64,000 nucleotides of DNA from Tubiluchus corallicola. Taxonomy: Eukaryota; Animalia; Priapulida. The position numbers and the translations under genes are program-made. Positions 49 through 62,673 of the stretch are shown piece by piece. The notes below the pieces were generated by a model. That model made no database searches. It saw nothing but the letters and a program-made list of their open reading frames with translations, and was not told the origin of the DNA. The stretch covers positions 1 through 64,000 of the forward strand of contig JAQGDQ010000933.1 of the NCBI GenBank assembly GCA_030141605.1. Direction: 5' to 3'. Numbering within the stretch: the stretch's first letter is position 1; every line of letters starts with the position of its first letter.

Positions 49-91
<43 letters not shown>

Positions 92-20420: not shown

Positions 20421-20425
20421 CTTAA

Positions 20426-25307: not shown

Positions 25308-28300
25308 ATGGACGCCGATAAGAGAAAAATATCAAAAAACAACTATTTACTATTAAGTTTTGCCACTGTTTTATTTATATGCATTTTATATTCTATAAGC
25401 AGTACAGAAAACCTTGTAAACTCAAGAGCACCTCGCGTTTATAGGAAAAAATATTTTTCACATTTCATCGAAAGAAAAGACATTATATTATTCGTAGGTA
25501 TTATGAGTGCCCCTGTTCGAAGAGACAGACGTGACGTCATTCGCGCATCGTGGAAAAAGTGGTGTGACGTTTTTGATGATGTCATCTGCTTATTTTTTAC
25601 AGATGGACAGGACAGGTTTGGTAACAAACTAAATAAATCATTGTTAGAACCTTTGATGTATGAAAAGAAATTAAACAATGACACAATTTTGACAGAATCA
25701 CCTAGTGGAATGAATTTTGGGAGGCGTTTGCTTTGGATGATGAGTTGGGCTTTACAAAGATATCATTTCAAGTACTTTCTACGATTAGATGATGATACAT
25801 TTTTGTGTCTGAAGAAATTAAGAGCTGTATTAGCTATTTTTCCCTACACCAGGATCAACTGGGGAGCTTTGCATTGCAAGGGTTTGTATAAATTACTCTT
25901 ATTCAGTTGGCCAGTATCCATGGAAGCAATAATCACATAAAAGATTTGATTTTCTAGAAATTAAGCACCTGATAAATGAAAACGATTGAGCAATCTTCTA
26001 TCACGTATGATAGCATTTTTAAATCAAGATCAATAGCTTGTGGTATGCCTTACATCTAGTGCAAGATTTTTTCAAAGTTAACAAAACTCAGCAAACAAAA
26101 CATTACTTACTTAGCAATAGGATATCACATTCGTACATTGTAATGAGATGCACTATAGACGATTTGAAACGCTTTCAAGCGGCGTTTTATTGTTTAGTGT
26201 TTTTAATTAGTAATAGTAGCGGTTATAATAGGCTAGTAGAAGTAGCCAATTTGTGGGACTTAATTACAAGGCAATTGTTTTCTTTGTTTTAATGAGTAGA
26301 TTATGTAGCATACTGATTGAATTTTTAGGTCTTTGAGCTCTTGAAAAGGTGCAAGTTTGTGCATGGCAAGGGTGATTCTACACAATGCTGTATGTACGAT
26401 TTGATAACTGACTTTGTTAGCATTATGTTGTGCAACATTGTGATAATCTTACAACCATCAGGGTTCATTACACTGAAAATGGTCCGTCTCTGAATTGCCC
26501 AAAAATGTATTTATTGCTTTTCACAAGCTGTTTTTTCTTCGTGCTATAAGTTTTCTCAAGCAATTTTTCAATCTAAGCTTGTTAATGCTGTTGCTAGGAA
26601 AAACAGTAACCATGGCAACAAATTTATGAGACTAACAGATTATATTATCAGCGATACATAGCAAGGAAGACAGGTGGCATTAGGTGCTTTTAAAAAGGTC
26701 AGTAAAGACATTGTTGCAAACGCTAGCGCTGTGTGGGGCGGTCCTAAGATTTAACTGCCCTAAAAGACTTTCTAGTGATTGTGGGAATCTTTCTGTTACA
26801 TAACATCCTAATACAGAATTTTAGTAGCGAGTATTTGCTGACTTAGTCCAAACATTAGAAGAAAATGGTTTTGTATTTTCTGTTAGTAACTGGTTCACAT
26901 AATAACTTTATCTAAATTAGGCTGAAATTTAATTACTGCATATGGACTACTTCAATAAAATTAAAAATGCGTTTTCGGTTAGTTAGTGATGCACCCTGGA
27001 GGGTGGGTCAGCGACAATTTTTCAAATAGGTGAAAGCATTTTAAATAATTAATAATATTCGTTTCTAAGTCCTACAAGCAGGTAAGCGAAAAGCCAAGTA
27101 ATATAATTTTGCATGGAAAGTTTTTTGGGAAATAGTTTAATATGTACTTTTCTTCCCCTGATTTTCGCAAAACTTTTCTTCTACTGATTAACGTTTGCGT
27201 AAGTGACGTCATGTAATGGCGCCATCTGAACAGTGTCACGGGAAGTTGAAAATGAAAACAAATAAAAAATCCTTTTAAACGAGTTTGATATATGCATAAA
27301 TTGCTATAAAGTGATATAATTTCTTATAGCGATTTTTCTGAAACCCTCTTTTGGTTCCCCTCTTCTTATCCTTCGAAGAATGTTGCAATAAGTTTACTTC
27401 AAGCTATATAAATGTAGTGGCAAGCCAGTGAAAGGGTGGCTACATCACAAGGGGGCACATAATTTCATTAGCCCCATATTAACCCGTCCCTGAGAGAAAC
27501 CTATAAGGCTCTGCAGAAAATGCAATTTCGAAACAGGACCACTTTTCTGCATTTCGAAAAAAAACTAAGTTGCATGTAAACGGAGAACAGCATAAGCAAA
27601 AATAAGCGTTTGCAAGTTCTGATTTTTCCACGTGCAAGTTGAATACAAACACTATGGGTCTGTGTTAGAAGACCGAGTCACGAAGCTATTTCTTCTTGCT
27701 TCTAGCTAGTCTACCTGACTATGTCACTAGTTAAATTGCGATGTTGCATCAGAAGAGTTTAAAGCAAAACCGGGCACAATCTTAACCTGTTGGTCAAAAC
27801 AATCTACTTTTTAAAATATGGAAAGGAAACATTCCGGAATGCCTTAGTGAAAGAATTTTTATCTCAAAAACGGAATTTCGAGTTCGAGCCATTAGTTCTT
27901 CGCTGTTAGTTACATTTACCTGCATTTCGGAAATACCTTGTAAAACATTTGCTGTGCCTCTCAGTTCAGATGTGTTAGTTTCTGACGTACTACACACTTT
28001 CGACAGCTCATGCGTGAGCACAGCAGTAAATTTGAAATTTTAATTATCTTAAAACTTTAAAACTTGGAGAGTTTTATTACAACATTCTGAATCTTTTGCA
28101 GTAGTACTGTACTTCCATATTCGCTTTTGCAAATATATGCAGCACGCTCATGGAATATTTTTGCTGTTGAAAATTATGTTAGTTGACGATGTCATCAATA
28201 TTTTTGCTCCCCTGCCTTTAATTAAGATTTTAGTCTATTATTTAATTATCAGCAACGCTTTTCCAGTATTACTGGTATTAAAATATATACGTTTTAGAGT

Positions 28301-29119
28301 ACTTGAACATGGGCCAGTGTATGGAAAGCCATCTTGACTTCTTTTAAGTTAAAGCTAACAAATGACTATCTCACGTAGAATTCATAGAACAAGGTGATTT
28401 GACCGTAGCACATGCCATTATGGACGAGTAGGTTAAAGTTTCGCAGGCCAAACTTAGCTGTTGGCAACTTGTAGGTTACTGGTCATCCTTAATGCATGAG
28501 AAATAGATCTCCTACGTCACCTAACTTAAACTCCTCTCTGAACAGCAATATTAAATATATATTATTGAAGTAATAAGATTAACAATAAAGCAAATACACT
28601 TACAGGTCTTTACAAAGGTACCTCTATTTATTGCAATTCTTATGAAAATGTACAGAATCCTAATTACACTTCTTTGCAGGTGTCAAAAGGATCGATGAGT
28701 TCTTTTTCTTGGTGTCGGGAGACATTGTGCAAGAAATTATCTACACATTAAAACCTGAAAATCTACAATGTTCTACACATGGTGGCATATCAGCTGCACT
28801 GTGGCTGCACAAATTGGATAATATTACTTATTTAGCAGATAGGAGAGTGCATTTGGGATTTAGCAAATATTTGAAAAATCCCAGCGTTACAACTTGTGAC
28901 GAAGTTATAGTTATGCATCACTCCTATCCAAAACTAGCAAAGAAATTGTGGGGCGTGGTAAATGCATCTCGTCAACTTCCTGAAAAAGATATTGACTTTT
29001 CTCACAAGTGTTCAGGTAGAGAAAATAATTTCACTATACAACAACCAGACAATCCACCCGTTAACATCTACCATTTCCAAATTCTAACTGTAGTGTGGTA
29101 CTTATTGTATCCCTTTTGA
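25308..29119 (+). CDS. GT31 beta-1,3-galactosyltransferase (B3GALT6-like); exons 25308-25881 and 28680-29119, 337 aa
   Basis: Type II signal anchor, LFVGIMSAP..RRDVIRASW, YFLRLDDDTFL (DxD) and HHSYP motifs; phase-1 GT-AG intron joins HCKG-VKRIDEFF in frame. Confidence 0.85.
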
Positions 29120-30829: not shown

Positions 30830-31575
30830 TTTTCTTAGAAACCTTTCATTTGATATGCTACAAGCTAGTTCTGCTCGACACAGGAAGGCATTTGTCTCTC
30901 AACCCCTATTTCAACTCCTCAACTCCTCAATTTCAACTCCTCCTCTCCCTAGCGGGCTCGCGGACCAGCCATTCTCATTTTAACGTATGCATTCGATATG
31001 CCTTCATCGAGACCTTTCGTTTGATATACAACAAGGTACCATTGCTCAACACTCTAGTGGACTTTAGTTTCAGACCCACATTTTTTTGTTTTTGCCCCTT
31101 AACGGAAATTTTTCCTATATGCACTCGCACCATATATTATGATGTGCAAGGCCATGACTCCACTTAGCAACACACCAAATATTATGGTCCTAGCTCAAAA
31201 ACTGTTGAAGTAGATGGATCCTAAAAAAATAAATGAAGGCCCATGGAACTCGGATCACACGTATACATATATAACTTTGCCTAGAGAGCTTACTCTGTGA
31301 GTTCTGTGTCCCTGGCACTCAGCGTGTAAAAAGTCACAATATTGGGACTCTTCAAATTTGGGAACCCAAGGAGTAGTTGAATCATGAAGGAAAAACTGAC
31401 CAACCTTACGAGTTTAGTGACCGTAGCTTGCAAGACTTTCGAGATTTTAAGCGTTATAGTGACGGAGCATAAATAATAATAAATAAATAAATAATAACTG
31501 TGTGAAAAACAGTAACAGCTATGACAAAGTTAGAATACAACCTCGTGAGCCTACACGCGTTTCATGTAGCTACTG
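30830..31575. repeat. Probable non-autonomous DNA-element patchwork (MITE/Helentron-like) with (AAAT)n
   Basis: Motif gagacctttc.tttgatat at ~30840 and ~31010 also occurs inverted at ~712-733; short microsatellite at ~31470. Confidence 0.35.
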
Positions 31576-31956
31576 CGTAATTGTCTAATGGACATTAGCT
31601 CAATGGATAATAATTTTACACCGTATAAAATAATTAGCCTATTACCTAATAGTCAGTACAAAATAAATAAAAAACAAGTCTTTTAATTTTCAAATTTTCT
31701 ATTTTATAATTGTAATTACGACAATAAATTTTACTGTAAATGGTCACTGAAAGTACTTTGCTTGAAAGTTTGCTTCATAAAATGAATTATATTTGTTATT
31801 AAATTTTATTATATTTTTTCACCATTTCACGTTTTTGAAGATAAAAAAATCCATTCCGAGATTTGCAACAACACTGTCTTGGTCAAGCAGAGTAGAAACT
31901 TTCAAAACCTTGCCTAGACTCAGAAAGACTTAAATTGAAAGATTAGAAAAGCCTAC

Positions 31957-32498
31957 CTAATTTGCCAATCTCTTCAGGTCGCCCTAATCCGGCCTGTCCA
32001 ATGTACAAAGGTTTACTGCCATTAAGCGATCGCAGTAATTGCTCAAGTTTTTCAATATTAACGAAAGTGTCATCGTCAGCCTTCGTAAAACATTCAAATT
32101 CGTTAAGAAAATTGTCATGCATAAATTTCAGCATCAAAAAGGTTTTCTTGACAGCTGGATATTTGTCGTCATTTACGCCAAACAGAGGTGTTACAGGAAT
32201 ATTGGTCACTTTTGGTTTTTCAGCTCCAACGAAAAATTGTATTTCACCAGGCACTTTATTACCCCATGACTGATAGACATTCACTGCTCGTGTTTCTAAA
32301 AAATCGCGTTTGGATAGGACACCAACATATAAAAGTTTTTTTGATACTCGTTTGTTCCATACATTTTTTCGCTGACTGAAATACATATGTTTCGTGTAGT
32401 TCAGACATTGAAAATGAATTTGTAACAACTGAAACAAAAAAACCACAATAAAACCCAAAGAAAAATAAACATGCTGCTTTAAAAATTGACGGTTGCAT
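31957..32498 (-). pseudogene. Chondroitin sulfate synthase (CHSY1-like) first exon with a +1 frameshift in an A7 run (~32340); downstream exons not found
   Basis: Signal anchor MQPSIFKAACLFFFGFYCGFFV, then LLYVGV..FLETRA..VYQSWG..VPG, YPAVKKTFLMLKFMHD, KADDDTFV and PLYIGQAGLG; splice donor G|GTAGGC at 31956. Confidence 0.85.
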
Positions 32499-33343
32499 TT
32501 TAGAAACTTCTCTTATTATCCATCCGTGCTTCACCAGTCAAGGTTTAGCGGCACGGCACTCCGTATTTAATTTTCTTTGTAAACAGTTAGTTCAAGCTGA
32601 TATTTCATTTTTAACATTATGCAAATAAACTATTCATAAATTGTTCAAACTGCATATTAAGAATGCACCAAGCTCACAGCTATAAAATGATAATTAGCTA
32701 TAGAACGAGGCACAGGAAAATAGCGTTGTAAACCGCACATAAAACCTTCTGCTTACATGGCTTTTAAATTTCTGGTCCAACGTAACTCTGCATTCTTGCT
32801 TTAGAACTTTACTTTTAGAACTACAGAACAATTAATGCATTTAACCTGCGACACTATAACATTCTTTTAGGAATGTAATGGGTATTAAATTGACTGTATT
32901 GTGTAAATACAAGTTAAGACTACACATTAGATGTTTCGGGTAAATTCCGGAGAAAATTCCAAATATAGTGCGAAGTAAAACTAATAAAAACGTTTGCTTA
33001 ATTTTTGACTACAGCACTTTAACTGGTTTGGTTTGATTTGTGTTTTTCTTTACAATTTTAGACATTTTAGTTTTATAGACATCGTGTGGCTTAAAGAGCA
33101 AAATATATGGACACCTGGCAAAGATAACTTCCGTGTATTGTGATATGAGATTTCTTACCGTGTCTGAGGGCTTTTCACATCAGTAACTTACCCGTGTTTT
33201 AAGTTTTTTCCTCGGACACAGAATAGAAAAATCGGAAGCCTCCTGCGTGTAGCAAAACTGAGTCATTTGTTATGTGTTATAAAGTGCTGTTGTAACATTT
33301 TTGGGTATTTATTTCAGACAGGACAAGCCGGTTAAGGACAACA

Positions 33344-36300
33344 ATGTCGCACAAACAACGGAAGTCAAGCCATCATTCAATTCTTGTGTTCATGACTACC
33401 ATATGTACCATTATTGGAGTAATATGCGGCCCACATATTATGAGACACTTTTCTTATTGCAGTAGGCAAGTAAAATTGCCTGTCGATACTCGTTATATGC
33501 AATTTGCAAAAAAGGAGTTGCTTTTTGTTTGTGTAATAGGTTCTATTACTGATAAGACTAAAACTGCTGTAAAAGAAACATGGGGAAATTTTGCTGGCGG
33601 GACGGTCAAATTTTTTGGAGAAATGTTTTTTACAAGTTTGCAAGAAAATATTACAAATTCGGCCAAACATCATTTATTACTGACATTGTATTATACAGCA
33701 ACTCATCATGGTTCTGATTTTGAATGGTTTATGTTCGAAACCGATGATGTTTATATTCGCGTGGACGAACTGGAAAAAATTATCAGGTCTATTGATAGCA
33801 GACTTATGGTACTTATTGAAAGTGGTTCTTATAATGTTACATTTCTAGATACAGGTAAAATTTTTTTGCTAATTAAATCGTTCGACAATTAATTCATGAT
33901 TAATATAAAACAATTTTTATTACAGATGCCTGTCAGAAACAGACTGGTTTCGACCACCTGCTTTTTTAAACTTGATTTCAGGTACACAAAAATTAAGGAA
34001 ACTAATTTTTGCCATAAACCAGCAGAATGCTGCATAAAATGACCTCGGTTATTCATTCTGAAAGTCATGAAACTATGCTCAGTGCTAGTGGTTCAAGACA
34101 GTCGACTAGCTATTTCTAGTAGTAGGCTTTTTACGTGATTTAATTGCCCTGTAATTGCCCATTTAATATCTATTGTTATGCTAATTAGTCTATTGTTTTT
34201 TAGGACTAATTAGTGCTAATTAGGGACCCTGCCCTGTTGGGTTAGGTACCTGCCCGGGGCTTAGGGACACCCAACCCACCCCTCTGCAACCGGCAATGAG
34301 AGAATTTTTTTTCTGGGACTCTGCCGATGCGCCTGTTCCGACAGTGAAATCTCCATGACTATTTCTCTAGCCGTATCTATACTATTTCTCTTCGGTACCA
34401 AACCCTCGTCAATCAGCAAAATCTTTTTTTTGTAATGGTCAACGAGGGAAATTTTTTTGGGGGACTCTGTCGAGGCGACAGTGAATTCTTCACGACCACT
34501 TCTCTTCTCTGTGACGGCGCCAACAGTGAATTCTCCACGACCACTTTTTTCTCGTGTCGTCAAACCCCCGTGTTTGTTGATAAATGAAAATTTAATTACT
34601 GTCTGTTTTTTTAAATGACATTTAATTATTGTCTGGTTTTATTTCAAACGCTTTTCGATAAATGCATTTTCGCAAATGTTTTTTATTCATAGCTTACAAA
34701 ATTTTTTTTTACATTTTTTTGCAAAATACATACATACATTTTGACGTCGTAAATTACATGAATTACTAAAACTAGATTAATGATGTCGCTATGGCAGAGT
34801 ACATAGTTATTATCGTGATACAGGCAAACGTTATTACTGTTAAACATAAATTCGTTAAATTTGAGAAAAATAAAATTATTATGCTTCTAGTGTGAAAAAT
34901 ATTCAGAGTAATTTGTTCTTCGCATTTACAAGTTAGTTTGGGAAAGAGCTCCACTTCGTAAAACACTTCTCTAAAAAAATGTGCCGATGGACGAACGAGT
35001 TCTTCATACAACGCATCCAGATTCAATCTGCAGTGAATTTTGGCTCTGGAGGTGATGGTGCAAACTGCGATCTCGACGGCCATCATCAGTCCGTGTCATT
35101 TCGAGAGTTCTTCGACCGCATTCCGTAGTTCTTTTTCCCGGGAAAAACCGTTAGTCACCAAGGAGCCGGAGGCAAAAATCAACAGTGTGCTGCAAAGTCG
35201 CTTTAGCAAAAACATTTGTGGTTTCCAATCGTAGCGTCTTCCGCCCGGTCTCCGCTGGAGTAATTTCAGATTAAGGCGCTGCGAGATTGAAATTGTGGCG
35301 ACAATATTCACCGTTTGGATTGACACGTTAGAACATAGTTGGCAATTGTTTCAGATGCTCAAAACGCTCTGCCTCGCCCGGTGCTCTGCCAACGTATGGA
35401 GGGTGGCAGGCGCTCGCTTTCCAGATCCTCTACGTGTACAACTATGCAATTTTTGGGAAGATGTATTTTCGGGAAGAGGAAAATCTCCGCTCCCTTGACG
35501 TAGGTGATCCTGCCTCTGGTGGTCTGTCGTAGAATTTTCTTCAATTCCTCATACTCGAGCATTCCTTTCTCCCACAAGATGCGCCATGTATGTGCCAGGT
35601 TAGGTAGTTGTAGGTGGATCGCTTGTACGGGGGAACGCGATTCCAGGGGTGGGGCGGTTTGAAGCTGTAGTTGTGATATATACCGGTCTCTAATTCGCGA
35701 ATTACCAAATTTTTGACCTGGTATTCTTCTTTTCCACACTGGAAGGCATCTATGGTGATAACTATGCTCGATTCAGACATCTGTGACGATGGGGGTTCCT
35801 TCTACGCCGTCGACAACGAGTTTTCCTTCGATGACGATTTGCTTGTGATTGTTCACAAATTCCAGAGAATTGATTTTTTCGAAGGTGTATTTTTTATGAC
35901 CTTGTTGGGGGCACTCTTGCGTGCGTTGGCGCGCTTGCCGCCCCGCGTCCCCTGTTGTTGTTGCTTGCGAGGAACAGTGGTTAGAGGTTGTTTGAAATCC
36001 TGCAGTGGTTGTTTATAATCCTGCAAGAGAATAAGAAGAACAATAGTTATAGTAGTGTTGTTCACTATCGACGTTGAGTTACATTACGTGCCATTCTTTC
36101 AGAATTTTCCTTGCTTTTTGGGGGGCAGAGGGCGCAGTGGGGGTGACAACATTCGAGCATTCAAAACAGTAGAAAAAATAATGAAGATTTACTCACCTGG
36201 TTGTGTTCATCTAAGGATGAAAGCGATGTCGACAAATCATGTGTCAGAGGAAACACCATAGTATCATTTTCCATCATAATCATTTAGTGATGTTTTCTTC

Positions 36301-39300
36301 ACTGACTAGAGAGAGATGTGCTCGCGTGCTATCTTTGTGCTGCCCAAGACAGTTGTGACAGCTGTGCAGGAATTACAGGTCTACATGAAATGATTCTATT
36401 AAAGAGTTACCTAAATAGAGTTGGAAGACTATTTCTGGCAAATAGACAAATAGCCCATTGAAGGGCATTTAAGCAGAATGTAAAATACTCGTATTATGAC
36501 ATACAGATTGCTCATTCATACATGACAATTGTGGGTTCACTCATTTATCTACTGACCGGGGCTGGTTCACGTAACCAAGGGTTATCGTAAAAACAGACAC
36601 GTGCCTTGAGATACCCTTTTTGGCACTTTTCTCGACATTCGAGCTGAACATACAAACAAAAGAAGGAATTCATCTAATTCATCAAGGAAATTCATCTAAT
36701 TTCTAACTACGTGTAAGCTATGTTCAGTATAAACTACAACACCAAAATTTTAATAGTTTGTAAATACTTTTACCCTAAATTTGTTTCCGGCTTTTATCCT
36801 TTTGATCTCGCAGAATGCCAGTGTTTGTCATGTAAATTTAATGTAAAATTTGTAGCGTACAAGTTGAATGTGTATTTAACTGTTTATCACCGGATGAGTG
36901 CCACCATCCTTGCACTCCTCTCTGGGACTTTTAAATTTTGTTGTTTACTACTTTAGAAAACAATATTGTCTGAAAAAATGCAGAATGTTACAAGTGGCTT
37001 TGGCAGCATTAACAATATCTCACAGTAACGAAATTACAGCAAGTGTCTGGGGGAAAAACTAACTTGGAACAAAAAATGAATCAAAATTACCAAATTTGCA
37101 AAGCAACGCAGAAAGATGCAGATACAAACGTGAAAACGCAAAATAACGTTAGTGTGCGAAATTTGGGATGCTTGGGAAAAACTTATCTTCATCAGTAATC
37201 AACGGACTTCAATAAAAGTAGCGCACGCCACACAAAATGGGTCTATGCATCACAACGACCAATTTTGTAATTAAGATGCTAGTTAGAATTTTTTTGCAAT
37301 TCAAAAATGTTGTTGGGTGAAAACTCATCAAGTCCCTTTTGAGTTTGTTTTGTCTCACATGTTCCAGGAATGGAATCACTATTTTCCAAATGTTTAGAAA
37401 AACATTGCAAAAGTTGTTGGCAAGATGAGATTTAGCAGATTAGTGACGAGGTCTATTTATGGAGCCGATCATGTAGTTTTACAGTAACATTACGTTATGT
37501 AATGGGCAGTACAATAGATTTGACGAAAGCAGAAATTATTGTAACAAGAACATCGCGTTGGTCAATTGTCAAATCCAACCTTGTTGGTTAAAAAAACTCG
37601 ATGTTACAAATAGTTTAGTGATCAGTTAACTCTTACATAAAGTTTGTGCTGTAGATTTAGTGCATATTAAACTACGCATAAAAAATGCTTTGTGCTGAAT
37701 CGCCAATTATATATTTGACATCCGCAACTGTTTTTTCTGAATGCCTGTGGATAACGAAGATCGTGCCAAGACGGCAATGATGCAACCTAGGTGTGTTGTC
37801 GAATATTGCTCCTGCGACGCTAAAATTATGTTATTTTTTAGATGTGTTATTTTCATCGCTATGTTCAAAATTTTGTGAAAATAGCTGAACCCCTGTCAGA
37901 ATTAATAAAGAAAAGTGCTCTATATAACTAGTCCAGCTTAAAACGAAAATTGTCAGAAAACGAAGTTAGCCGTCAAATTTGGGAATTCGTGCACGCTAGC
38001 TTACCATAGCTGCGAATAAAAAAAGAAAAATATATCTAAGCCCCAGTCCCAACCAACAGATAACACGTCAGTGAAACGAATAACCTGCAGTCAAACTCAC
38101 TGCAGTTATAGTAGACCTATATTTTCTGTTGTTGATAAAGCAGCTTGAATGTAGCTTATGTTACAATTAGACAAGTATCACAATTTTTCGCAAAATTCGC
38201 ATGGCACAGGAATTCGCTAATATACACAATTTTACAAAACTGCGCCCAGCTTATGCGCATCAGTCCAGCGTAATATCTCGGCACAGTAGAAGAAAATGTA
38301 ACTGTGTAAGCAACGCTCTCTAAAACTGTATATCGTGCGATCTTAGCATTAGAAAGAGAATTAATGTTATTTTCTTTTTTTACTGATGATAGGTGATCTA
38401 CAAGAAAGCATCTGCTGTATAATACAACCTGGCTTGATTGTGAGTTACACCTTTCTTTTGTTTTGTCGGTCAAGTTTGGAACGCTGTTTGCTAACTTTTG
38501 GTTCTGCACTGCCTTCTCAGATGCAAGAGAACTCTCATGTAGGTATAAGTTTTATCACAAATATATTTTGTCTAATTTTACACAAAACTTACTTTGGGGA
38601 AGAAGACAAGTTTCTAACTCCACTGCTAATATAATTATATCGTGGGGGGGGCAAGTTTTTGTCAGTCAAGTATTCAGAAAGACACCTGTTGTTATTTTAT
38701 GCAGCCAAAGGTGCCTTTTGTTCTAGCACCAGAATCAAACATCTGAACCATGTTTTTATGGCTTTAAAGTTTAGCCTTCAGAGGGCCTAAATAAATTTGC
38801 AAGTGTCTAGTAGATTTGGCAGCATTTAAGTAGCAGACTACCACAGACAGGTAACTGACAGTGATAAACCTGTTAATTCTCTGGAAACTCGCCTTTTTTT
38901 GATTGCTGATAACTTTGCAACAACTTATTGCTTAGTATTCCGTGTAAGGAGACTACAAGTTTTACTGGCTACATGCATGCCTCCCTCAGATTTCGATCTC
39001 TCTCTCTTCCCCCCCCCCCCACACACAAAACAGATAAATTAGTCCTTTTTCGTTACAGAGCTAAATCGATATGTGTTTCAGCTATATGAAGATGCGATGC
39101 TGCAGGAGTTATTGAAGAACAACTCTCCCTACGTATACCATCAAATCGTAGCAGACAAAAAAGAAATATTTCTTAAGCATAGAAAACATCGTTCGAGGTT
39201 GGAGCCAGAACAGCACTTATATCTCAGCCATATGCAAATAAACGAGTTGAGAGTAAAAGAATTATTCCACAAGAGCCGACAGTTAATTTGTGAGTCACGT

Positions 39301-40506
39301 GATGGAGAAGAAACCAACAATTCTTCGCTTCATTCTAAATCATACAGTCAGAATGGATCTGACGTACCTCTTGTTAGCTTTTCAGAACTTTCCAATCTTT
39401 CTCGATGGGACTGCAGAAAAACTGCTGTGTGTTATGTCCAAAACAAACCATTACATGAGCAATGCCGACGACATGACAAAAATTGCCAAAAACAACAACT
39501 ATGCTGTTTTATTTACAAGCGATTGTTAGAAACACAAAGGAATATGATAGCGTTTTTCCTTTTGTGTAAACAGCTTAATCCAAAAAAAGGTATTTTCTAC
39601 AATATGCGTGTGATATATGGCAAAGAATTTGTTACCGTTTCTAGATATTTCCATGTAAACCACGTATTTTCTATTTTGGAATACACAGAGGACAGAGAAA
39701 TTATTAAGAACCACGCCCTTAGAATTGGGGATCTGCAAAGAACGTCCACAAAGACAGTAAACTTTGTTCTTCCTCTTTATGAGAGATATCACACTTTTCA
39801 AAAATTTCTGAAAATCTTTACAGTCATATGCTTAGAGAAGCAAGAGTCGGCAACTTTGACTATTGTACATTTTCGTGATAACGTTTATCAGCGGAAAAAA
39901 ATTTTTGATTTGGTTGCCAATCTCCAACATGCTTACCCAGATTTTAGAGTTATGATTATCAATTCGAATTTGAAATTTTCACGTGGACTGGCTTTTGACA
40001 TTGCTACAAAGTATTTTGAAGATAATGACTTGTTGTTTTTTGTGGATGTAGACATGGATTTTAGCAATACGTTTCTTACAAGAGCACGTTTATCTACTGT
40101 GCAGTATCAACAAGTTTATTTTCCAATTGTTTTTAAGGAATTTAAACTTCAGCCTAAAAATATTGCACGAGAAGGTGCATTATTGTTTGATAAAGAAGGA
40201 TTCTGGAATGACTATGGATTTGGTATGGTGTGTTTGTATAAAAGTGATTATAAAACTGTAGGTGGTTTTAACCTCACAATTCAAGGATGGGGAAAGGAGG
40301 ACGTCGATTTTTTTGAAAAAGTTGTTACAAGTAATTTAACAGCATTTCGAGCCCCAGATGTAGGGCTTGTGCATAAGTATCACAAGAAAGTGTGTGATCA
40401 CAAACTCGACAGAAGGAGGCTAATTCATTGCAAGAATTCAATGTCAAATGCAATAGGATCACAGTTGGTGTTATCTGAAATTGTTTTCAGTTTCAGGGAA
40501 ATATAA
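33344..40506 (+). CDS. Chondroitin synthase (CHSY)-like glycosyltransferase; exons 33344-33854, 38393-38542 and 39059-40506, 702 aa
   Basis: Two phase-1 GT-AG introns give an open 2109-nt frame; TM anchor, fringe-like N-terminal domain, C-terminal GT7 motifs FSRGLA, FFVDVD, VYFPIVF, GFWNDYGFGM and GWGKEDVD. Confidence 0.88.
34865..35326 (-). pseudogene. Divergent TATA-binding-protein-like ORF with one in-frame TGA (35096-35098)
   Basis: Two TBP-type repeats: TVNIVAT..RLNL..TLLIFASGSLVTNG..E..LRNA and RLNLDALY..YEVELFPKL..LNIFHT. Confidence 0.8.
35330..35780 (-). pseudogene. Polinton-associated putative DEDD/RNase H-fold exonuclease, frameshift at ~35580
   Basis: ITIDAF..YQVKNL..FKPPHPW..YLTWHIHG-ILWEKG..YEEL..IL..YVKG.E..VEDLE pattern, recalled from invertebrate Polinton-like elements. 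Confidence 0.6.
35773..36065 (-). pseudogene. Small basic hypothetical protein of the same element (frameshifted)
   Basis: RGGKRANARKSAPNK segment; an alternate frame ends VNNHKQIVIEGKLVVDGVEGTPIVTDV*, overlapping the next ATG. Confidence 0.35.
37400..37920 (+). mobile_element. Highly decayed Gypsy reverse transcriptase
   Basis: SNPTLLVKK, FDIRNCF and MPVDNEDRAKTA remnants in order. Confidence 0.55.
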
Positions 40507-45100: not shown

Positions 45101-45435
45101 CACCGCATATATATAGCAAAATTTCTTAGTTCTGTTAATTAAGGATAATTTGCTTTCTAGTTCTTCATAAAATTCTTCAAGGTTAGTATTTGGGTGCCTG
45201 TAGATGACTCCAAATAAAATGTTTTTGATGTTGGGTGGAGTTTCTATTTCAATCCACATATTCTCCAGTTGCATATGGTTTGTGGAGCCATTTTTACAGT
45301 CTGAGTTTCTGATATACAATCCCACACCACCTGCATTGGTTGTAGAATCGTCACGAATAAATTGATACCCAGGTAAGGGTGTGAGAAAAATATGATCTTT
45401 TTTAAACGGGTTTCACTTAATGCTATAATGTAGGC
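42155..45435 (-). mobile_element. 5'-truncated L2/CR1-group LINE with APE endonuclease and RT, several frameshifts
   Basis: IALSETR, GVIYRHP, ICGDININ, TLIDHIY, DHLPIF, NYRPISLL, QFGFR, GVPQGSNLGPLLF, FADDT and KYLG motifs; 3' UTR with stem-loop, AATAAA and (CTATGT)n tail. Confidence 0.95.
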
Positions 45436-48046: not shown

Positions 48047-48911
48047 CTATATTTTTCGAAACAAATCATACCTAAAAGTGTAATTGAATAAGAGAAAATC
48101 TAAATAATATTTTTCATAAATCATTAAACCTAATTTTAAAGGAATGACATCATAATATTTTTCTAAAAGATTGTCTGCACTGTTGTTTTTTACAATTCCT
48201 TTTATTATGGAATTAAACTGCTTTGACGAAGAAAGATTATTCAGAAACTGTACTGATTCTCTGTCCACATTTTCTAATTTACCAATAAAATCGTATTTTA
48301 TAAAACACACGTTACACAAGTCAACATACCTCGCCCAGTGTTCATTCAATGCCGTGTTCTTAGTTTGTGTAATGTACAGTAAAAATTGCTTGAAGGTTGG
48401 TATCCAATTTGGTGATAATAGTGTTGCTTGTGTAGATTTGTCATAAAAAAACTTGTAAATGGGTTTGATGAAAAGAGAGCTTCCTGCCTCTATTTTGTCC
48501 CTGTAGCCAGACAGAAGTCGTGTTAACGGTTCTCTGACGAATAAAAACTTCGTAAAATTATCTAACGTATAGTTTCGATCATTTTCCTCAAATACTTTAC
48601 CAAATCTTAGTGAGTACATTTCATGGTGGATATACTCAGGTTTAACAGTTCTATTCGAAGCTAATTTCATCAAAATGATTTTCCACATTGTACTTCCTGC
48701 CTTTGGTAGTAAGCGCAGTAAAACAGCTTATATTTAGGCACAGAAAAGGCTTCTTTAAGCCAACGGCTTGAATCCATGACATATGCTGAGGCGCTAGATT
48801 CTCCTCCTTGGATTTTCTCACAAATATCTCTTATAAGCATTTTTCTCCGATCATTAATCATATTTAAATCCTCATATGCAGTGTCAGGAGAAAGATCCGG
48901 CAAAACACTTC
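48047..48911 (-). CDS. Carbohydrate sulfotransferase (Sulfotransfer_2; CHST11-14/HNK-1ST-like) terminal exon with one frameshift at ~48712
   Basis: Acceptor ttttttttcttag at 48912; YKLFYC-LPKAGSTMWK (5'-PSB), KFLFVREPLTRLLSGYRDK (3'-PB), NEHW..CNVCFIKYDFIGKLE and YYLDFLLFNY motifs. Confidence 0.88.
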
Positions 48912-50800: not shown

Positions 50801-53800
50801 CTGACCATTTCGTTCTCGGATTTAGGACTATCTTTCTTACTACAGACTGGCAAGTTTTCTTCACGCGATTTCTTTGCGATATTCTTACCTTCTCTTAAAA
50901 CGTTCCTACGTGACTGAAATTCCAAAATAGCGAGGCTATCCATTATAATTATGGTAACACATAATATTTTTCTTGTTCGTAATCTTTTTACAAAATGTGC
51001 CATTTTTAGACAATTCTCTGCAGTTTGCATGTCAGATAGTGTCGGCGCTACACATAATACTGCCTGATCGATGGTGTTGAACTCACATTGTCACATTGTC
51101 AAAATCACAGCAAAAAGGAGACACACGTAAAGCGGTTCACCCAGTTAACATTGTTGTAATTTTGTTTTTCTTTTTTTTTCAACAAAAGAAATTCAATACA
51201 TTGTGAATCAAAGTTATCAGGAAGAATGACTGGCTGCTTAACACAGTTAAGTCTCATACACATGCGCAATTTTTTGACAGGTTAAATTTTAATATTCTAC
51301 AATTGAAAATTGTCTTTGTACTGACGTGAAGATGCGCAGACATTCGGACTCAGATATTTGAACACAGGACGTTTTACCACAAAACATTTGTTGGCAGAGG
51401 CAGGTAGTTTTGATGGCAGAGTCAAGTGAATAGAGCAATCCACTTTCCACTTTTCGTGTACGCACAACAAGTAAATTGTGACTGCGGACAATTTTTTGTG
51501 TCAGTTATTGCGCATTTGTAGAGGATTTTAGCTTTTGTGTTGTAACAAAAGTATATCATTTGAACAAGTCATCTAGCACACAAGAAAAACGCTAAAATAG
51601 AACCCTGGAATAAAATTGTAACAAGTTTACAGTATATTTCTGTACTAGTATAATAAATATTTATGAAAATGCAACAAGATAGGAATAGCAGCTACAATAT
51701 CTACGCATGCGCAAATCTACCCCACATTTCACAACAAGCTAAAGTTAGGGAAGGACATGTTTTGAGGGGGTTTGGATTGTTTCATTATTTATAGGGACGA
51801 GGAAGGGTTAGAGTTATTGTAACAAGCTAAATGTGTTACTATAACTTCTAAGTGTTCAGAAAGAACAATATATCTTTCACCTTTCACAATGTATGATAAT
51901 GCGTATACAGTGTCCTGCATAATGTCCCATTTTTTGTTTTCATATTAAAGTCAGCTAAAAAAATTACAACAATCACAGTCTGTGTTATTTAATTTTGACA
52001 AAAACACACAGTTTGTCCAAACTTTGTAAAAAAATAAATTTCATGCATAAATGGGTTAATTTAAAGGAAGTTTGCAAATACCTATCTCATGTAGAATTCT
52101 ATTTCTGGTGAAAAAGTTTTGCTAAAAACATTCATATTTTAAATGTCTTATCGGGAAATATAACTTGACGGAAAATTAGGACCGATTTTCAAGTGTAATA
52201 CCGTTCATAGAAATAAAATCGATTTTTCCAGAGTACAGTTTTATCTAAGCATCTGCATTGTTTTGTTTCTATCAAGTTAAAAGATGTTTAAAAAGCATAT
52301 AATCATACATTGGCCTTTCTTATTAGCTGGGGTTGATTATAAAATCACATTGAACAAACGCAGATGCATTTACGACAATACTCCTCTTTTTTTATTGTCT
52401 GTGAACAAAAAATAACAAAACGAAACATCAGAGCTGTCATCCTAAGCAGCCGACATTACTTCCACCTCTATAACAACCAACTAACTAGTTCAAAATCAAA
52501 TTACATTCTGGTGAGAAGCCAACCTGGCGCATAAATTAGAATCTGCAGGCAGGTCATAACATCTTATATATCACGTCTAGACGTTACTTTATTTAACCTG
52601 ATTTCTAAGATTCAGTTAGGCTTAAGCCAAAATAAATGTTCATTAAATACAGTTTGTTTACGTGTAAAAAATATATTTTTATAAGCGTACTAATGAAACA
52701 CGTGAGGCTAAATCCATAGATAAGTCTTGATAAATAATTTATTTATTGTTTGGGTCAAACTAATTGATTTTGTAGGGCTAGATGCCAAGGGCAATCAGTT
52801 TATATTGGTAAATACATAGGCTCAGCTTCATAGAATCTTTGTAGGTAGTAACACATGCATCATACGTGTATATGAGTCTGTGCGCATGGGTTTATCAAGA
52901 CTCTACGAAGCCGTAGACTGGCAGTTCAGTCCTACTCATCTCTACTACTGTATTATTTATAAATGAAGCACTGCATGCAATTACTTGTCGTGTGCATGTA
53001 TGCATGTGCACATTATTTATTTACAAACCTACGATATCATATATTTGTAATTATATGGATTAATTTCAGGGCATGTAAATGGGTGCAATTTTTAATGTAC
53101 CAAATCCGCCACATCGTATTGGAGTAAAACGACCAAGAAACAAATGACAGAACCTTCAACAAAAGGAAAAGAAGGATATGCGTGTGTGTGTGTGTGTGTT
53201 GGGGGGGGGGGGTGTCTGCGAGTATGGTTTGGCCCTCTACGCAAACGTATAAACACAATGTATCTTGATTGTGTTAAAAGTTGTTTAGGTGTGAGAAGAA
53301 TCAGGCACAATGAATTGGGTTTGTTGAAATAAATTTGCCGTCTGTGGAAACATTCATTAAAGAATTTTTTTAAAAGATTCCTATCAGCCATTTTGATGAC
53401 AGTTCATTTGAAACAAGTTTATTTAACACTGTGTAAAGCTTGAAAAAAATAATCAGAGCATTCGCAGCATACATGTTGCTAACTAAACAAAATTTAAATT
53501 ACTGTGTCTAGTCAATAACACTAAAATACGTTTTTGGCTAGAGAGTGGCGCACCCTGGAGACTAAGTCAGCGACATTTTTTACGAATTGGCACAAATATT
53601 TTCAATTATTATTCCTAGTTTCAAAGGTTTTTCCAGCTGGTAAGCGAAATGCTAAGTAATATAGATTTGCATGGAAAGTATTTTGAGACATAATTTAACA
53701 TTGCCTGTTCGATTCCTCTCATTTACGTGTGCGTAGTGACGTTTACGTCGCAATAGTGAGGTGATGTAAAGGCGCCATCGGAACAATATTGTGGGAGATT

Positions 53801-55085: not shown

Positions 55086-55189
55086 GGTTTGTTACAGAAG
55101 CCGATTTTATGCGTGGTGAATGTATTATAGTTTTAAATAAACTTTTTCGTAATAAATACTTGAACTTATCTGTGATTATATTTATATTT

Positions 55190-56814: not shown

Positions 56815-56965
56815 TACTGAGTGGAGAAGAAATAGGATCAAGTGAGGTGAAGTGAAATGAAGAGAGGTGAGGTGAGATGAAATAACATTATGTGAAATGA
56901 TGTGTGATGAAGTGAGATGAAGTGAGGTGAGGTTAGGCAGAGGGAGATGAAGTGAGGAGAGCTGA
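56815..56965. repeat. Degenerate pentamer repeat (GTGAG/GTGAA/ATGAA)n
   Basis: Direct reading. Confidence 0.85.
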
Positions 56966-58076: not shown

Positions 58077-60666
58077 TCTTTATCTTACCGCGTATACTTC
58101 TAGCTGTCCGTTTTTATTCATTTTTACATGGATGTGTTCTATTAACATACCTATTGTATGTAACAAGTTTCAGGCAAATCCCTTCACGGGTTACGGAGAT
58201 ATGGAATGTTCCATTTATGGAACATTGGGAAGATCAGCACGTATTACTTACAAAAGGACACACTGAAGATTGATGCATGTTGCATTGCATTTTCGATGTT
58301 TATTTACAGCAATACCATGACAACACAATGTATGTATACAACACATGATATTTCTTCATGTGCACGACTGAACATGCACATGCACATCACACTGGATGTG
58401 CATATACACCTCGCCCTAGCGGCGGTGGTACACTATAAAGCAGTCCTTCTGCCTCTCACTGTGGAGCCGCACTCCACACTTGTTGCACATTCGTTTCGTG
58501 TTTGTTTTACATACTTTACATCGTCCCTGAGTCGTTGCCACAGCCTGGTGATTTCGACCATCAAACCTCGCTTCGACTGGAAGGCCCATAGGCCCGTGAC
58601 CTACGCCTCGAACAGCAAATGGTTCAGTGTCCGCTTTTAGTAGGCACAACGCCACATTGCGACGAAAGTCCAAATGAGTCATCACTGTCTCACGATGAAG
58701 GACACAGTAAAGCCGCCACGCTACAACAATGGATACGTTCACTGCATTTAGGAAGAATGGCCAGTACCACTTTTTTCCTCTGATCATTGGCCTGTACGAA
58801 CCTAGAAGGCGATCAAATAGGTCCACTCCGCCCATACCCTGATTGTATGCATTGACAAGGTGAGGCTGGGCAACGTCCTTCTCTCCCCCTTTTGTTCTCC
58901 TTTTCACCTGGTGAATCGGAAGATGGGTTTGATAGTTGCTAGCTACCGCTACAACTGAATTGTCGTTCCACATTGTTACGTTGCCATTGCCATCTGATCT
59001 GTAATCAAATGTGCCCCTATCCTTCTTGGCAAGTTCTTTCTTGGAAATCATAGATTTCGAAGCACCACGTGTTCTGTTTTCTCGGACAGTTCCTGTTGCT
59101 TTCAAGTTTGCCGCAGACAAATCACTCAACAGATCATACGTAGTAAAAAAATTATCAAAGAACAGTTCGTGGCGGCGAACGTCCGAGTTTTCCGAAATAA
59201 CCTTCACCATATTCTGTACAACTCGAGTTCCTAACGGGATGTCACGGTCTGCACCCTCTTCCTTCCCTTGGTACAGTCGCATTGCATATATGGGTAGCCG
59301 TCAGCACCGCAGAAACACCATATTTTGTACCCAAATCTGATGGGCTTTCCTTTTATGTACATCTTGCCCCCGTGTCGCCCGAAATAAGGCACCATGCTTT
59401 TGTCTACGCTCAAAACATTATGGAACACACCAAACCGAACAATGTTGGCATTGAGAACGTCATATGACGGCATTACTTTTGCGAACTTATTTCCACGAGC
59501 AAGGTTCTGATTATCGGCGAAGTGAATGTACCTTTTTATTTCCTGAAACCTGTTTCTGCTCATTGCGTTGGAAATGACTGGAACTCCCAAATCAGGTTGT
59601 GTTGACCAGTAGTGGTGTTCTTCAGGAAGACTGTGGTAACCTGACACAACTAGACATCTGATGAACCGTCGTACTTCTGACTTTGTGACTGTAAAGTTGG
59701 GCTTGTTTTTATCCCGACGTGCGTAGAGTAGTGTCTGCTCAACAACATCATTCATCAAATTGTCGGAAAAAATTTCTCTCCACAACTCGTATGGAGTCTC
59801 ACCTTCCAATGCATTCAGTTCATCAGACAACGTGATATCAGCAGTGGGTAATATCTTGTCGAAGTCAGTTTTCTTTCTCCAATTTGGAAGTTCTCTTCGT
59901 TCTCCAATTTAGGCGAATTTACTTGTTGGTTCTTCATTCTCGACTACATCGTCATCCGCTTCCTCATCCACTTCCATCCCTCCCGCTGGCTCGAAGTCAA
60001 CATCTTCTTGGCTGTCCTCCAAATCACTGTCTTGATCAGCTTCGTCTCCTGCGGCGGGAGGAAGCAGTACCACGTTGACTGGGCGTTCACTCTGTTCGAG
60101 TGGTTTGCTAACGCTGGTATCCACAAAATGTTGTGTTTCACTCAACTTGTTAGGAAAGTATCAAGAACAATGGCAGTGAGCGCTACGCTACTTGGCAATA
60201 AGCTGCACACTGTCTACTGCACACTGTAAGCATGACTGTGGTGAGCCACGCTCCACTGTACACTGCAACCTAAAACGTGCTGATCCTACCAATGTTCCAT
60301 AAATGGAACATCAAAATATTACAGTATTTTTTTAGTACTTAGCAACCGAATGTACGATCTGTTATATTGCCAATCAATACCTTGGAGTGTAAGCTTTTAG
60401 GCAGTGCAGCCAATTTCCACTGAAGTTCACTCTGCACTTTTTCAGGCCAATTTGAAATTGCGCCGTCAAATTTCGTATTTTTAGGCCTTAGTTGGGCAAC
60501 CATGAAAAATTTGAATCTCAATATAAAAAGTTCAGTTTCCCAACAAAGTAAGAGACATGTCAGGACATCACGATAGAGGTAGAATTGCCTTGATAAATTA
60601 AGCATGTGAGCTGCGATGGCGCCATAAAAAGTATGTTCCATTTATGGAACATTGGTAAGATAAAGG
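58077..60666 (-). mobile_element. Full-length piggyBac copy 2 (~2.59 kb)
   Basis: TIRs (C/T)CTTTATCTTACC at both ends, flanked by TTAA (58073-58076) and TCAA (60667-60670); subterminal palindromes at ~58206, 60291 and 60633. Confidence 0.95.
58416..60145 (-). pseudogene. PGBD3-like transposase (stop at 59909, 2-bp insertion at ~59287)
   Basis: Catalytic triad motifs SVDKSM, FFDNFF and GGVDLFD; C-terminal Cys-rich domain CKVC..CNKC..LH..CF..YH. Confidence 0.95.
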
Positions 60667-61647
60667 TCAAAGTTCTCAACAGGCAAATTGGTTCTTATCC
60701 AAGTTCGCCAACACAATAAATTTACACATAATACAAGACCCGGGTTTCAAAACCATTTCGTGGATTATATTACAGAATTTAACAATTTACTATGTAAGAA
60801 AATTTTTGTTTAAATAAATCTATTTAGACTAATTTAATAATTTGCGATCTTATTTATTTTTTGGCTTTTCCAATTCCTTCCTTTTTGGCAAAAAACAAAA
60901 CGCATTTTTCTTTAAATGAATATTAAACATTAAATGAAAAGCAGAAACCCTAACTATGCAAGAAAACTAGAAATTTCAACGTCATTGACGGCAGCAGTTC
61001 CCCAGCGAATATTGCATTATTTTCCGTTCATATTGTATGATCCACAAAAGCTAGTTAGTGTCATTCAAGCGCAAAACATTTCCACTTTTGTTTCCTAAGA
61101 TTACGTCAATTCATGCAGACACCATAGTCATGTTTCTCTTTCCTTTGTCCCCAGTTTCTATTGTGTGGTGCGTATATACTGTACAGCTAAGAAAGTGCTT
61201 GTAATAATGATCTTTCCATTACTAAAAAGTTTCTTACCCACACACATGTATCTAATAATGAGTGATAAGAATCGAAGTTTTCAGAAGTGGAACGCAGGAG
61301 ATGAATAGCAAAAAGGTTGCTAAAATAGTCTGTTAATATGAGCGACTATAAATAAAATATTTAATGTTGAACCTGTGTTTGGCTTTGGACGCTATGGAGA
61401 GTACCGGGGGAAAAGGGATTGATCATTGGGAAGAAAGCTTTAAATTACTTCTGCCTAGGGCGTCGAACTACATAGAGTCGACCCTGAAAACACCGAGAGT
61501 TGACACAAATTGCTTAAAATTAAATCGCTAAACGACATCATGCATACTGCCAGAACATTAAACCTTTCAGGTCGAAATGCATCGCTTGCAATTTCACACA
61601 GTATCATAATTATATGTTCTGCAATTTAGAGTTGAAAGGCTGCAAGA

Positions 61648-62673
61648 ATGTACCGTTTCTTTTGCACGAAATTAAAGCATGCGCAAAAAACATGTGTGAG
61701 GTTTCTGTTGCTCACATTATTTATCAAAATATACCTGCTAATAATGTGTGAGACAGAAGAAGCTTGTAATATGAAATGTGAAAGACAGAAGAAATACGAA
61801 AGCAAAATGACCGTGAAAGAACAGAGTGGTATTACAAAAGAACTGACGCGAGATTTTGAAACACAGCTTGATGGTAAGCAAGAAATGAGATCAGACAAGT
61901 TGAAAGCTATAAGTGGCAACAAAAAAACGTTGTTAGCGAATCAAAGAAAAGTATCGTCTCTGTCACAATACGTTAGCAATGTTGTGTTTGATGAAGCAAA
62001 TATGTTCAAAACGGTGTTTTTTAAAAATTTTGCAAGGAAAGAATTTCGCTATTACAAAGTCATCAATTATTTTCAGGGAACAAAGATGTTTTCCCCTGAC
62101 TTTACTGTGACCATTGCTACACACTGTTCATGGCAGTACATCCACCATCTATTAGACTTAGTGCACAGACACAATGGCCCTATATCAGCATCATTGTACG
62201 TACCTGGGAACAACTATCGTTTTGTTATGGAAATTGTCTCGAATATTAGAAAGTGTTACCAGGAATTTGCAGAAAAGGTGACCATTTCACTGTTTTTTCC
62301 CGAAGACGGGTATCCAACAACTGACAGAAATCTACACAAAGCTAACAGTACAATCCGCTGTGAACAGTTGACACAGAAACCTACAAAAGGGCCTGACTTG
62401 TCTCGTTATGGGCCGTACCCTATTAATCTGGGAAGAAACACAGCACGTTTGGCTGTTTATACGAAATACATGTTACTATTGGATGTTGAACTAAAACCCA
62501 GCCTTAATCTAACTGAAAACTTTACTCAAATGATGATGCTCAACAAGTATCATATTGAAAAGGCCTTGTATGTATTACCAACTTTTGAAGTACATGCCAA
62601 TCGACCAGTTCCAAATAACAAACACGAACTACTAAGATTAGTGGAACAAAATGAGGCTTTTCCATTTCAACAG
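61648..62673 (+). CDS. GT49 beta-1,4-glucuronyltransferase (B4GAT1-like) first coding exon; the gene continues beyond what is visible
   Basis: TM anchor; VTIATH, GPISASLY, YPINLGRNTAR, LLDVELKPS, YVLPTFEV and PNNKHELL motifs; donor CAG|GTATGC at 62674. Confidence 0.88.

What the first reader, a model, noticed from the sequence alone, without database searches (positions are those of the whole stretch)
25308..62673. Candidate animal glycosaminoglycan biosynthetic gene cluster (B3GALT6-like, two CHSY-like, CHST-like, B4GAT1-like)
Seen: every recognisable host gene in the window is a Golgi-type glycan enzyme, and they come from unrelated families (GT31, GT31/GT7 CHSY, Sulfotransfer_2, GT49), so tandem duplication alone cannot explain the grouping. 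Known: B3GALT6 builds the GAG linker, CHSY polymerises chondroitin, CHST11-14 sulfate it, and B4GAT1 adds GlcA to xylose; in vertebrates these genes are unlinked and pathway clusters are rare in animals. Inference: divergent paralogues have been gathered into a module that makes a lineage-specific sulfated glycan (primer, polymer, sulfation).
Basis: partly seen in the sequence, partly recalled or inferred. Interest (0 to 1): 0.88.

Follow-up and report, generated by a model that had tools for sequence, protein, structure and literature searches.

The report
Animal island of rewired glycan enzymes
In an unidentified, probably invertebrate genome, five genes for Golgi-type sugar- and sulfate-adding enzymes lie in a row with only transposon debris recognisable between them; they are altered or partly broken copies predicted not to make ordinary chondroitin sulfate, and they likely form a fast-changing gene island for some other sulfated sugar, although shared function is untested.

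Summary
The grouping is real. Of 298 ORFs of 55 aa or more, the Pfam hits at E < 1e-3 are transposon-type domains, two TBP-like pieces in a high-copy repeat, and the glycan-enzyme loci. It is not a chondroitin pathway. CHSY-B is an intact 702-aa model whose GlcA-transferase (GT31) motifs are degenerate while its GalNAc-transferase (GT7) motifs are intact. CHSY-A is a frameshifted first exon with no further exons found. The GT31 gene is only weakly B3GALT6-like and appears to lack xED. The sulfotransferase is frameshifted in the window but in frame in a contig from a run that also carries the window's sequence. GT49 enzymes belong to matriglycan, not the GAG linker, and that gene is incomplete in the window. 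Best reading (0.45): a non-random, fast-turning-over island of divergent Golgi paralogues, likely serving a non-chondroitin sulfated glycan. Main rival (0.35): co-located products of family expansion without shared function. Co-expression, synteny and genome-wide family sizes could not be tested. This scan noted similar mixed Golgi-enzyme clusters before, in a marine worm (e1-9934415, unchecked).

The parts
25308..25881 (+). G1 exon 1: type II membrane GT31 glycosyltransferase (TM at aa 14-32, RLDDD motif)
   Evidence: Pfam PF01762 E 3e-4; human B3GALT6 9sp7 E 3e-5 over 133 aa; GT donor, phase 1; TM scan
28680..29119 (+). G1 exon 2 (inferred); spliced model is 337 aa without stops; xED position reads HGG, C-terminal His region kept
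   Evidence: AG acceptor and frame; hhalign to the CHSY GT31 alignment, low probability 14%; no Pfam or PDB hit on its own
31957..32498 (-). CHSY-A: lone first exon of a chondroitin synthase; ADDD intact; +1 frameshift in an A7 run (32342-32336) between TM and catalytic part; no exon 2 or 3 found in 1-31950
   Evidence: Fringe E 2e-9; three-frame translation and HMM search of 2334 ORFs of 18 aa or more; motif scan
32499..33343 (.). 845-bp head-to-head interval between the CHSY-A and CHSY-B start codons (possible shared promoter, untested)
   Evidence: sequence; ATG positions
33344..33854 (+). CHSY-B exon 1: TM plus degenerate GT31 domain (TDD in place of DDD)
   Evidence: CHSY3 E 5e-6 vs CHPF E 0.8; alignment
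38393..38542 (+). CHSY-B exon 2 (inferred): G-loop reads CIIQPG, catalytic HED reads NSH
   Evidence: joint best of 21 stop-free candidate exons, margin only 1.3 bits over the best candidate elsewhere in the intron; hhalign 98.9% for the spliced domain
39059..40506 (+). CHSY-B exon 3: linker plus GT7 domain with DVD and WGKED intact
   Evidence: Pfam CHGN 3e-76; CHSY3 E 1e-54 vs CHPF 7e-7; AF2 model pLDDT 63.9 overall, mostly 76-98 over residues 241-460, top Foldseek hit CHSY3
50889..51003 (-). CHST-like exon 1 (inferred): start codon and signal anchor
   Evidence: phase-1 donor that fits exon 2; TM scan
48047..48911 (-). CHST-like exon 2: Sulfotransfer_2 catalytic domain; frameshifted at 48710-48711 in the window (stop after 118 aa); an in-frame version is seen in run X1
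   Evidence: Pfam PF03567 E 1e-36; translation; X1 contig of depth 126 lacks 2 bases at 48710
61648..62673 (+). G5 exon 1: type II membrane GT49 (B4GAT1/LARGE-type) enzyme, 342 aa, DVE at the DxD position; last third of the domain not found in the window
   Evidence: Pfam PF13896 E 4e-47, profile positions 2-209 of 329; LARGE1 E 5e-6
34264..36083 (-). high-copy repeat with broken TBP-like ORFs inside CHSY-B intron 1 (not part of the enzyme set)
   Evidence: Pfam TBP E 1e-5 and 3e-9; X1 summed depth 21,000-37,000
42678..45412 (-). broken LINE between CHSY-B and the CHST-like gene
   Evidence: Pfam RVT_1
58206..60670 (-). broken piggyBac-like transposon between the CHST-like and GT49 genes; a 96.6% identical inverted partial copy lies at 20422-22083
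   Evidence: Pfam DDE_Tnp_1_7; self-BLAST

Best explanation
Five Golgi-type glycan-enzyme loci from four families are adjacent in a transposon-rich stretch, and they likely form a non-random, fast-turning-over island of divergent paralogues that would act together on a lineage-specific sulfated glycan other than chondroitin. Shown: adjacency, family assignment, motif states in CHSY-B exons 1 and 3, and the two frameshifts. Inferred mechanism: an inverted duplication gave two head-to-head CHSY copies. CHSY-B lost its GT31 (GlcA) active site but kept the reading frame and its GT7 site, so it would act as a beta-1,4-GalNAc-only transferase. The GT49 enzyme would be the candidate GlcA donor and the CHST-like enzyme would sulfate the product. 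G1 would add a beta-1,3 sugar or be a non-catalytic partner. CHSY-A is probably a decaying remnant, and the CHST frameshift is probably a segregating null allele.
For: Only transposon-type, TBP-like-repeat and glycan-enzyme hits at E < 1e-3 among 298 ORFs. Under assumed family shares of 1-2%, a run of four is expected 0.00025-0.004 times per genome. CHSY-B is a 702-aa stop-free model with GT-AG junctions. Its degenerate exon 1 stays open for 170 codons (chance 2e-5) although only 23% identical to CHSY-A, which suggests retention. The xED Asp is kept in 46 of 46 homologues with residues at that column but reads His in CHSY-B. In human CHSY, GT31 mutants lose GlcA transfer and keep GalNAc transfer (PMC13389171, section 10). 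All five loci have an N-terminal hydrophobic anchor. The listed variants lean synonymous: 8 of 18 coding variants in G1 and CHST against about 25% expected, P = 0.057, from a truncated list.
Against: Nothing here shows shared function. The five 400-bp upstream regions share no more 6- to 8-mers than random sets (10 six-mers vs a null mean of 9.7). At a 5-10% family share the run is expected 0.16-2.5 times per genome, and large CHST and B3GALT expansions occur in invertebrates (39 PTHR12137 genes in Alvinella; PMC12403961, passages). Two of five loci are frameshifted in the window and a third is incomplete. Known GT49 enzymes add GlcA to xylose, not to GalNAc (PMC8478517, passages), so the proposed hand-off has no precedent found here. 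CHSY-B exon 2 is only weakly preferred over decoys. The window was picked from many, so a look-elsewhere penalty applies.
Confidence: 0.45

Rival explanations
1. The families are greatly expanded in this genome, and young or dying copies collect in the same transposon-rich, rearranging region without sharing a product.
For: Orphan frameshifted CHSY-A exon. CHST frameshift. G1 contigs at depth 297 and 230 against 74-92 for the exact-match contigs, a hint of extra near-identical copies (depth is not a copy number). Dense transposon debris. No shared upstream motif. Precedent for expansions (PMC12403961, passages).
Against: Needs a family share of about 5% or more, or strong local enrichment. No other expanded host family is recognised anywhere in the 64 kb. 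CHSY is not known to me as a highly expanded family (recalled). Long frames are kept open in G1, CHSY-B and G5.
Confidence: 0.35
2. The block is a polymorphic 'glycotype' supergene: linked alleles, including nulls, would set the surface or secreted glycan of each individual, in the manner of ABO/secretor nulls or bacterial capsule loci.
For: In-frame and frameshifted CHST versions both appear tied to sample S1. Strongly diverged haplotypes: one contig has 26 differences over about 335 bases beside an exact-match contig. Inverted 1.7-kb transposon copies bracket four of the five genes.
Against: High divergence may be genome-wide. The window's frameshift could be an assembly error, because no contig carrying it was laid across 48710. 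G5 lies outside the inverted copies. No population data.
Confidence: 0.12
3. One reading: a primer-polymer-sulfation cluster for chondroitin-sulfate-type GAG, with CHSY-A and CHSY-B forming the polymerase.
For: CHSY-A keeps the GT31 DDD motif and CHSY-B keeps the GT7 motifs, so they could complement each other. They are head to head, 845 bp apart.
Against: CHSY-A is frameshifted and has no exon 2 or 3 in 32 kb downstream. No CHPF, XYLT, B4GALT7 or B3GAT3 was recognised. G1 is far from B3GALT6. B4GAT1 is not a GAG-linker enzyme (PMC8478517, passages).
Confidence: 0.08

Closest known systems
Octocoral terpene biosynthetic gene clusters (cembrene B synthase with oxidative enzymes; PMC12685057, passages read; the primary papers Scesa 2022 and Grayson 2025 were not held)
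   Same: Non-homologous enzyme genes co-located in an animal genome
   Different: Those are conserved across species and biochemically tested small-molecule pathways; this is a set of Golgi glycan enzymes in one genome, partly broken and untested
Brown-algal fucan-related cluster: sulfotransferase, FK-GFPP and hydrolase (PMC11468063, passages read)
   Same: Eukaryotic cluster linking a sulfotransferase to putative sulfated-glycan synthesis; function inferred
   Different: Conserved microsynteny across orders and includes a nucleotide-sugar enzyme; here there are only transferases, no donor-supply gene was recognised and no synteny data exist
Human CHSY1/3-CHPF chondroitin polymerase (PMC13389171, passages and section 10 read; PDB 9o4g, 9q8z)
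   Same: CHSY-B has the GT31-linker-GT7 layout and is far closer to CHSY3 than to CHPF
   Different: CHSY has both sites live and CHPF has both dead; CHSY-B is predicted GT31-dead and GT7-live, so it would work like CSGALNACT1/2 or a GT31 point mutant. A similar motif pattern exists in an uncharacterised Lottia protein (ESP00132.1) and four unnamed proteins, though the four of these five with residues at that column keep the xED Asp
Matriglycan pathway: B4GAT1, LARGE, HNK-1ST/CHST10 (PMC8478517, passages read)
   Same: Pairs a GT49 glucuronyltransferase with a sulfotransferase of the CHST8-14 type (family link recalled)
   Different: The human genes are unlinked (chromosomes 11, 22 and 2 in that paper's table); no xylosyltransferase was recognised here; subfamily of G5 and of the CHST-like gene not resolved

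Membership tests
Animal biosynthetic gene cluster | Three or more non-paralogous enzyme genes adjacent, few or no unrelated genes between | tested here: met
   ORFs under 55 aa not scanned against Pfam
Animal biosynthetic gene cluster | Clustering beyond chance given genome-wide family sizes | tested here: inconclusive
   toy model with assumed shares gives 0.00025-2.5 runs per genome; no genome held
Animal biosynthetic gene cluster | Genes intact | tested here: inconclusive
   G1 and CHSY-B models intact; CHST frameshifted in the window, in frame in an X1 contig; CHSY-A fragment; G5 incomplete in the window
Animal biosynthetic gene cluster | Co-expression | not testable with these tools
   needs RNA data for this species; upstream k-mer sharing at null level
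Animal biosynthetic gene cluster | Conserved linkage in related species | not testable with these tools
   no close relative with context found
Chondroitin sulfate pathway | Successive steps of linker, polymer and sulfation with a bifunctional polymerase | tested here: not met
   no intact two-site CHSY in the window; no CHPF, XYLT, B4GALT7 or B3GAT3 recognised
CHSY (chondroitin synthase), for CHSY-B | TM, GT31, linker, GT7 architecture, closer to CHSY than to CHPF | tested here: met
CHSY (chondroitin synthase), for CHSY-B | GT31 DxD, G-loop and xED motifs | tested here: not met
   TDD, CIIQPG, NSH. 42 of 48 homologues have DDD and 46 of 46 keep the xED Asp; 53 homologue rows were printed, of which 5 have no residues at DxD and 7 none at xED. 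The exon 2 model is inferred, but no xED-type motif was found anywhere in the window's six frames
CHSY (chondroitin synthase), for CHSY-B | GT7 DxD and xED motifs | tested here: met
   FFVDVD and WGKED
B3GALT6 orthologue, for G1 | Orthologue-level similarity and phylogenetic grouping | tested here: inconclusive
   only E 3e-5 to human B3GALT6, exon 1 only; no B3GALT6 set was available for a tree
B3GALT6 orthologue, for G1 | GT-A xED catalytic base | tested here: inconclusive
   position reads HGG in a low-confidence alignment to CHSY GT31 domains; no ED or D near it in exon 2
Sulfotransfer_2 (CHST8-14 type) | Pfam domain with PAPS-binding motifs (PKAGS and REPLTRLLSGY; motif roles recalled) | tested here: met
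   the first motif carries the frameshift in the window
CHST11-14 (chondroitin/dermatan 4-O-sulfotransferase) specifically | Grouping with CHST11-14 rather than CHST8-10 or invertebrate expansions | not tested
   no reference sequences were obtained; no solved relative
GT49 / B4GAT1, for G5 | Complete GT49 domain after a type II anchor | tested here: inconclusive
   anchor and profile positions 2-209 of 329 present; rest not in the window

The most novel reading that the evidence does not exclude
An animal glycan biosynthetic gene cluster built from rewired parts: a half-inactivated chondroitin synthase (GalNAc only) paired with a GT49 glucuronyltransferase, a divergent GT31 enzyme and a sulfotransferase, co-expressed in one secretory cell type to make a new sulfated glycan, with null alleles segregating like a blood-group system.
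Probability: 0.25. Interest if true: 0.85.

Novelty: new variant of a known kind. Interest (0 to 1): 0.5.

Why it matters
Tested animal pathway clusters that I found are for terpenes. Five full-text searches (listings only, open-access library) returned no report of an animal cluster of GAG-type Golgi enzymes. If such islands are functional, linkage would assign enzymes to the many sulfated invertebrate glycans whose genes are unknown. A natural GalNAc-only CHSY would also be a useful enzyme for defined chondroitin synthesis. If the island is only a by-product of family expansion, it is an ordinary birth-and-death region with one unusual paralogue.

Tried and rejected
Whole-genome tests: no genome is held. 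Expression: no RNA holder listed; the one run guessed to be RNA (X6) laid only 9 short repeat-like pieces; this is no evidence either way. Synteny: the metagenome scan gave one 2.6-kb locus at 30% identity and the viral scan gave none. Word-based homologue searches found nothing for G1 (longer proteins only) or G5, which is weak evidence. Lineage: trees did not place CHSY-B (no starred set; a long-branch pairing with a Gordionus protein), and the 130-column GT31 tree did not test A-B sisterhood; the organism remains unidentified. CHSY-A exons 2 and 3: not found by tblastn, HMM or motif scan. The idea that CHSY-A exon 1 belongs to the plus-strand exon 3 through an inversion was rejected, because CHSY-B has its own exon 1 in phase with a matching degenerate exon 2. 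CHSY-B as CHPF was rejected. Shared promoter motifs: none above null. Rfam: 0 matches. PHROGs on 10 ORFs: 0. The CHSY-A frameshift could not be checked in reads, since one search showed only 12 of 130 indels. The ESM Atlas could not read G1; the homologue query added nothing. bioRxiv 10.1101/2024.02.19.579948 passages were not relevant. PMC12748766 was seen as a listing only. No supplements were read; supplementary trees of PMC8022947 may bear on G1's subfamily.
Full report
Context. The window is intron-bearing, about 35% GC eukaryotic DNA rich in transposon debris. No whole genome is held. The named best hits of the CHSY-like protein are animals at about 40% identity, and an exhaustive HMMER search of 1.84 billion representatives found nothing above about 44%. 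The organism is therefore probably an invertebrate without annotated close relatives; trees did not place it.

Observation. All 298 stop-to-stop ORFs of 55 aa or more were scanned against Pfam. Hits at E < 1e-3 were transposase, RT and RNase H domains, two TBP-like pieces in a high-copy repeat, and the glycan-enzyme loci: Galactosyl_T (25.3 kb, below cut-off), Fringe (32 kb, minus), CHGN/GT7C (39-40.5 kb), Sulfotransfer_2 (48 kb, minus) and GT49 (61.6-62.7 kb). CHSY-B exon 1 and G1 exon 2 have no Pfam hit and were assigned by other means. The 340 ORFs of 40-54 aa were not scanned. The first 25 kb holds no recognisable host gene.

G1. The two-exon model is 337 aa without stops. Exon 1 matches human B3GALT6 only at E 3e-5; exon 2 has no hit. 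DDD is kept, but the xED position reads HGG in a low-confidence alignment. B3GALT6 is described as single-copy in metazoan genomes (PMC8022947, passages), and G1 contigs lie at depth 297 and 230 against 74-92 for exact-match contigs, a hint of extra copies. G1 is best called a divergent GT31 enzyme, not a B3GALT6 orthologue.

CHSY-A. A first exon on the minus strand, 41-51% identical to the 18 CHSY proteins that passed the filter, with ADDD intact. The start codon and anchor are in a different frame from the catalytic part, with the shift at an A7 run. No second or third exon was found in the 32 kb downstream by tblastn, by HMM on 2334 ORFs of 18 aa or more, or by motif scan. It ends at a phase-1 donor at the same codon as CHSY-B exon 1 (sequence), which points to a duplication; the tree was too weak to test this. 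The frameshift could be a homopolymer assembly error; it was not checkable.

CHSY-B. Three exons give 702 aa with GT-AG junctions. It is far closer to CHSY3 than to CHPF by sequence and by predicted fold of exon 3. GT7 motifs DVD and WGKED are intact. GT31 motifs are not: TDD for DDD, CIIQPG for CMGGPG, NSH for HED. Among homologues with residues at those columns, 42 of 48 have DDD and 46 of 46 keep the xED Asp. Exon 2 is only 1.3 bits better than the best decoy elsewhere in the intron, but no xED-type motif exists in the window at all, so the site is degenerate or absent either way. In human CHSY, GT31 mutants lose GlcA transfer and keep GalNAc transfer (PMC13389171, section 10). CHSY-B is therefore predicted to be GalNAc-only and unable to polymerise chondroitin alone. 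The degenerate exon stays open for 170 codons (chance 2e-5), suggesting retention as a scaffold. Five of the 48 homologues also show a degenerate GT31 DxD with GT7 motifs wholly or partly kept, one from Lottia, so the layout has uncharacterised precedent.

CHST-like gene. Two exons; in the window a frameshift in the first PAPS-binding motif stops it at 118 aa. An X1 contig of depth 126 lacks two bases at 48710, which puts it in frame. X1 also holds long contigs identical to the window, so the simplest reading is a heterozygous null allele; an assembly error is not excluded, because no contig with the window's version was laid across that site. Its subfamily was not tested.

G5. One exon of 342 aa with an anchor covers GT49 profile positions 2-209 of 329; the rest is not in the window. 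B4GAT1 primes matriglycan on xylose, and HNK-1ST caps it (PMC8478517, passages); it is not part of the GAG linker.

Is the grouping more than chance? Counting the CHSY pair once, there are four independent loci. With an assumed 25,000 genes, expected runs per genome are 0.00025, 0.004, 0.16 and 2.5 at family shares of 1, 2, 5 and 10%. The share here is unknown. Some invertebrates expand these families strongly (PMC12403961, passages), and the window was selected from many. Upstream regions share no k-mers above null. Listed coding variants lean synonymous (8 of 18, P = 0.057), but the lists were truncated to the 40 best-supported rows per call.

Verdict. The block is real, and a canonical chondroitin cluster is unlikely (0.08). 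I favour a non-random island of divergent paralogues likely serving another sulfated, GalNAc-containing glycan (0.45) over a functionless by-product of expansions (0.35) and a polymorphic glycotype supergene (0.12). The closest known systems are coral terpene clusters (PMC12685057, passages) and the brown-algal fucan-related cluster (PMC11468063, passages). Five paper searches (listings only) returned no animal GAG-enzyme cluster; subscription papers were not searched.

Noticed in passing
window 1-321 and 401-721: Perfect (100%) 321-bp inverted repeat at the window's start; may be a fold-back assembly artefact or a contig end.
   Followed up: no
window 34264-36083: High-copy repeat (X1 summed depth 21,000-37,000) inside CHSY-B intron 1 with broken TBP-like ORFs; no PHROGs hit. 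Possibly a Polinton-like mobile element (recalled resemblance).
   Followed up: partly
window 20422-22083 and 58999-60670: Two 96.6% identical piggyBac-like copies in inverted orientation bracket four of the five genes and could mediate inversion; the left copy is cut by a gypsy RNase H fragment.
   Followed up: partly
window 4478-4645 and 13029-13264: Shared 68-bp tandem unit inside a dispersed repeat.
   Followed up: no
window 30958-39178 and 46644-51263: Many long X1 contigs match the window exactly at depth 74-102 beside strongly diverged contigs, indicating very high heterozygosity.
   Followed up: partly
proteins P0163, P0164, P0176, P0191 (Lottia ESP00132.1), P0193: Full-length CHSY/CHPF-like proteins with a degenerate GT31 DxD and GT7 motifs wholly or partly kept: a possible unrecognised half-active class.
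   Followed up: partly
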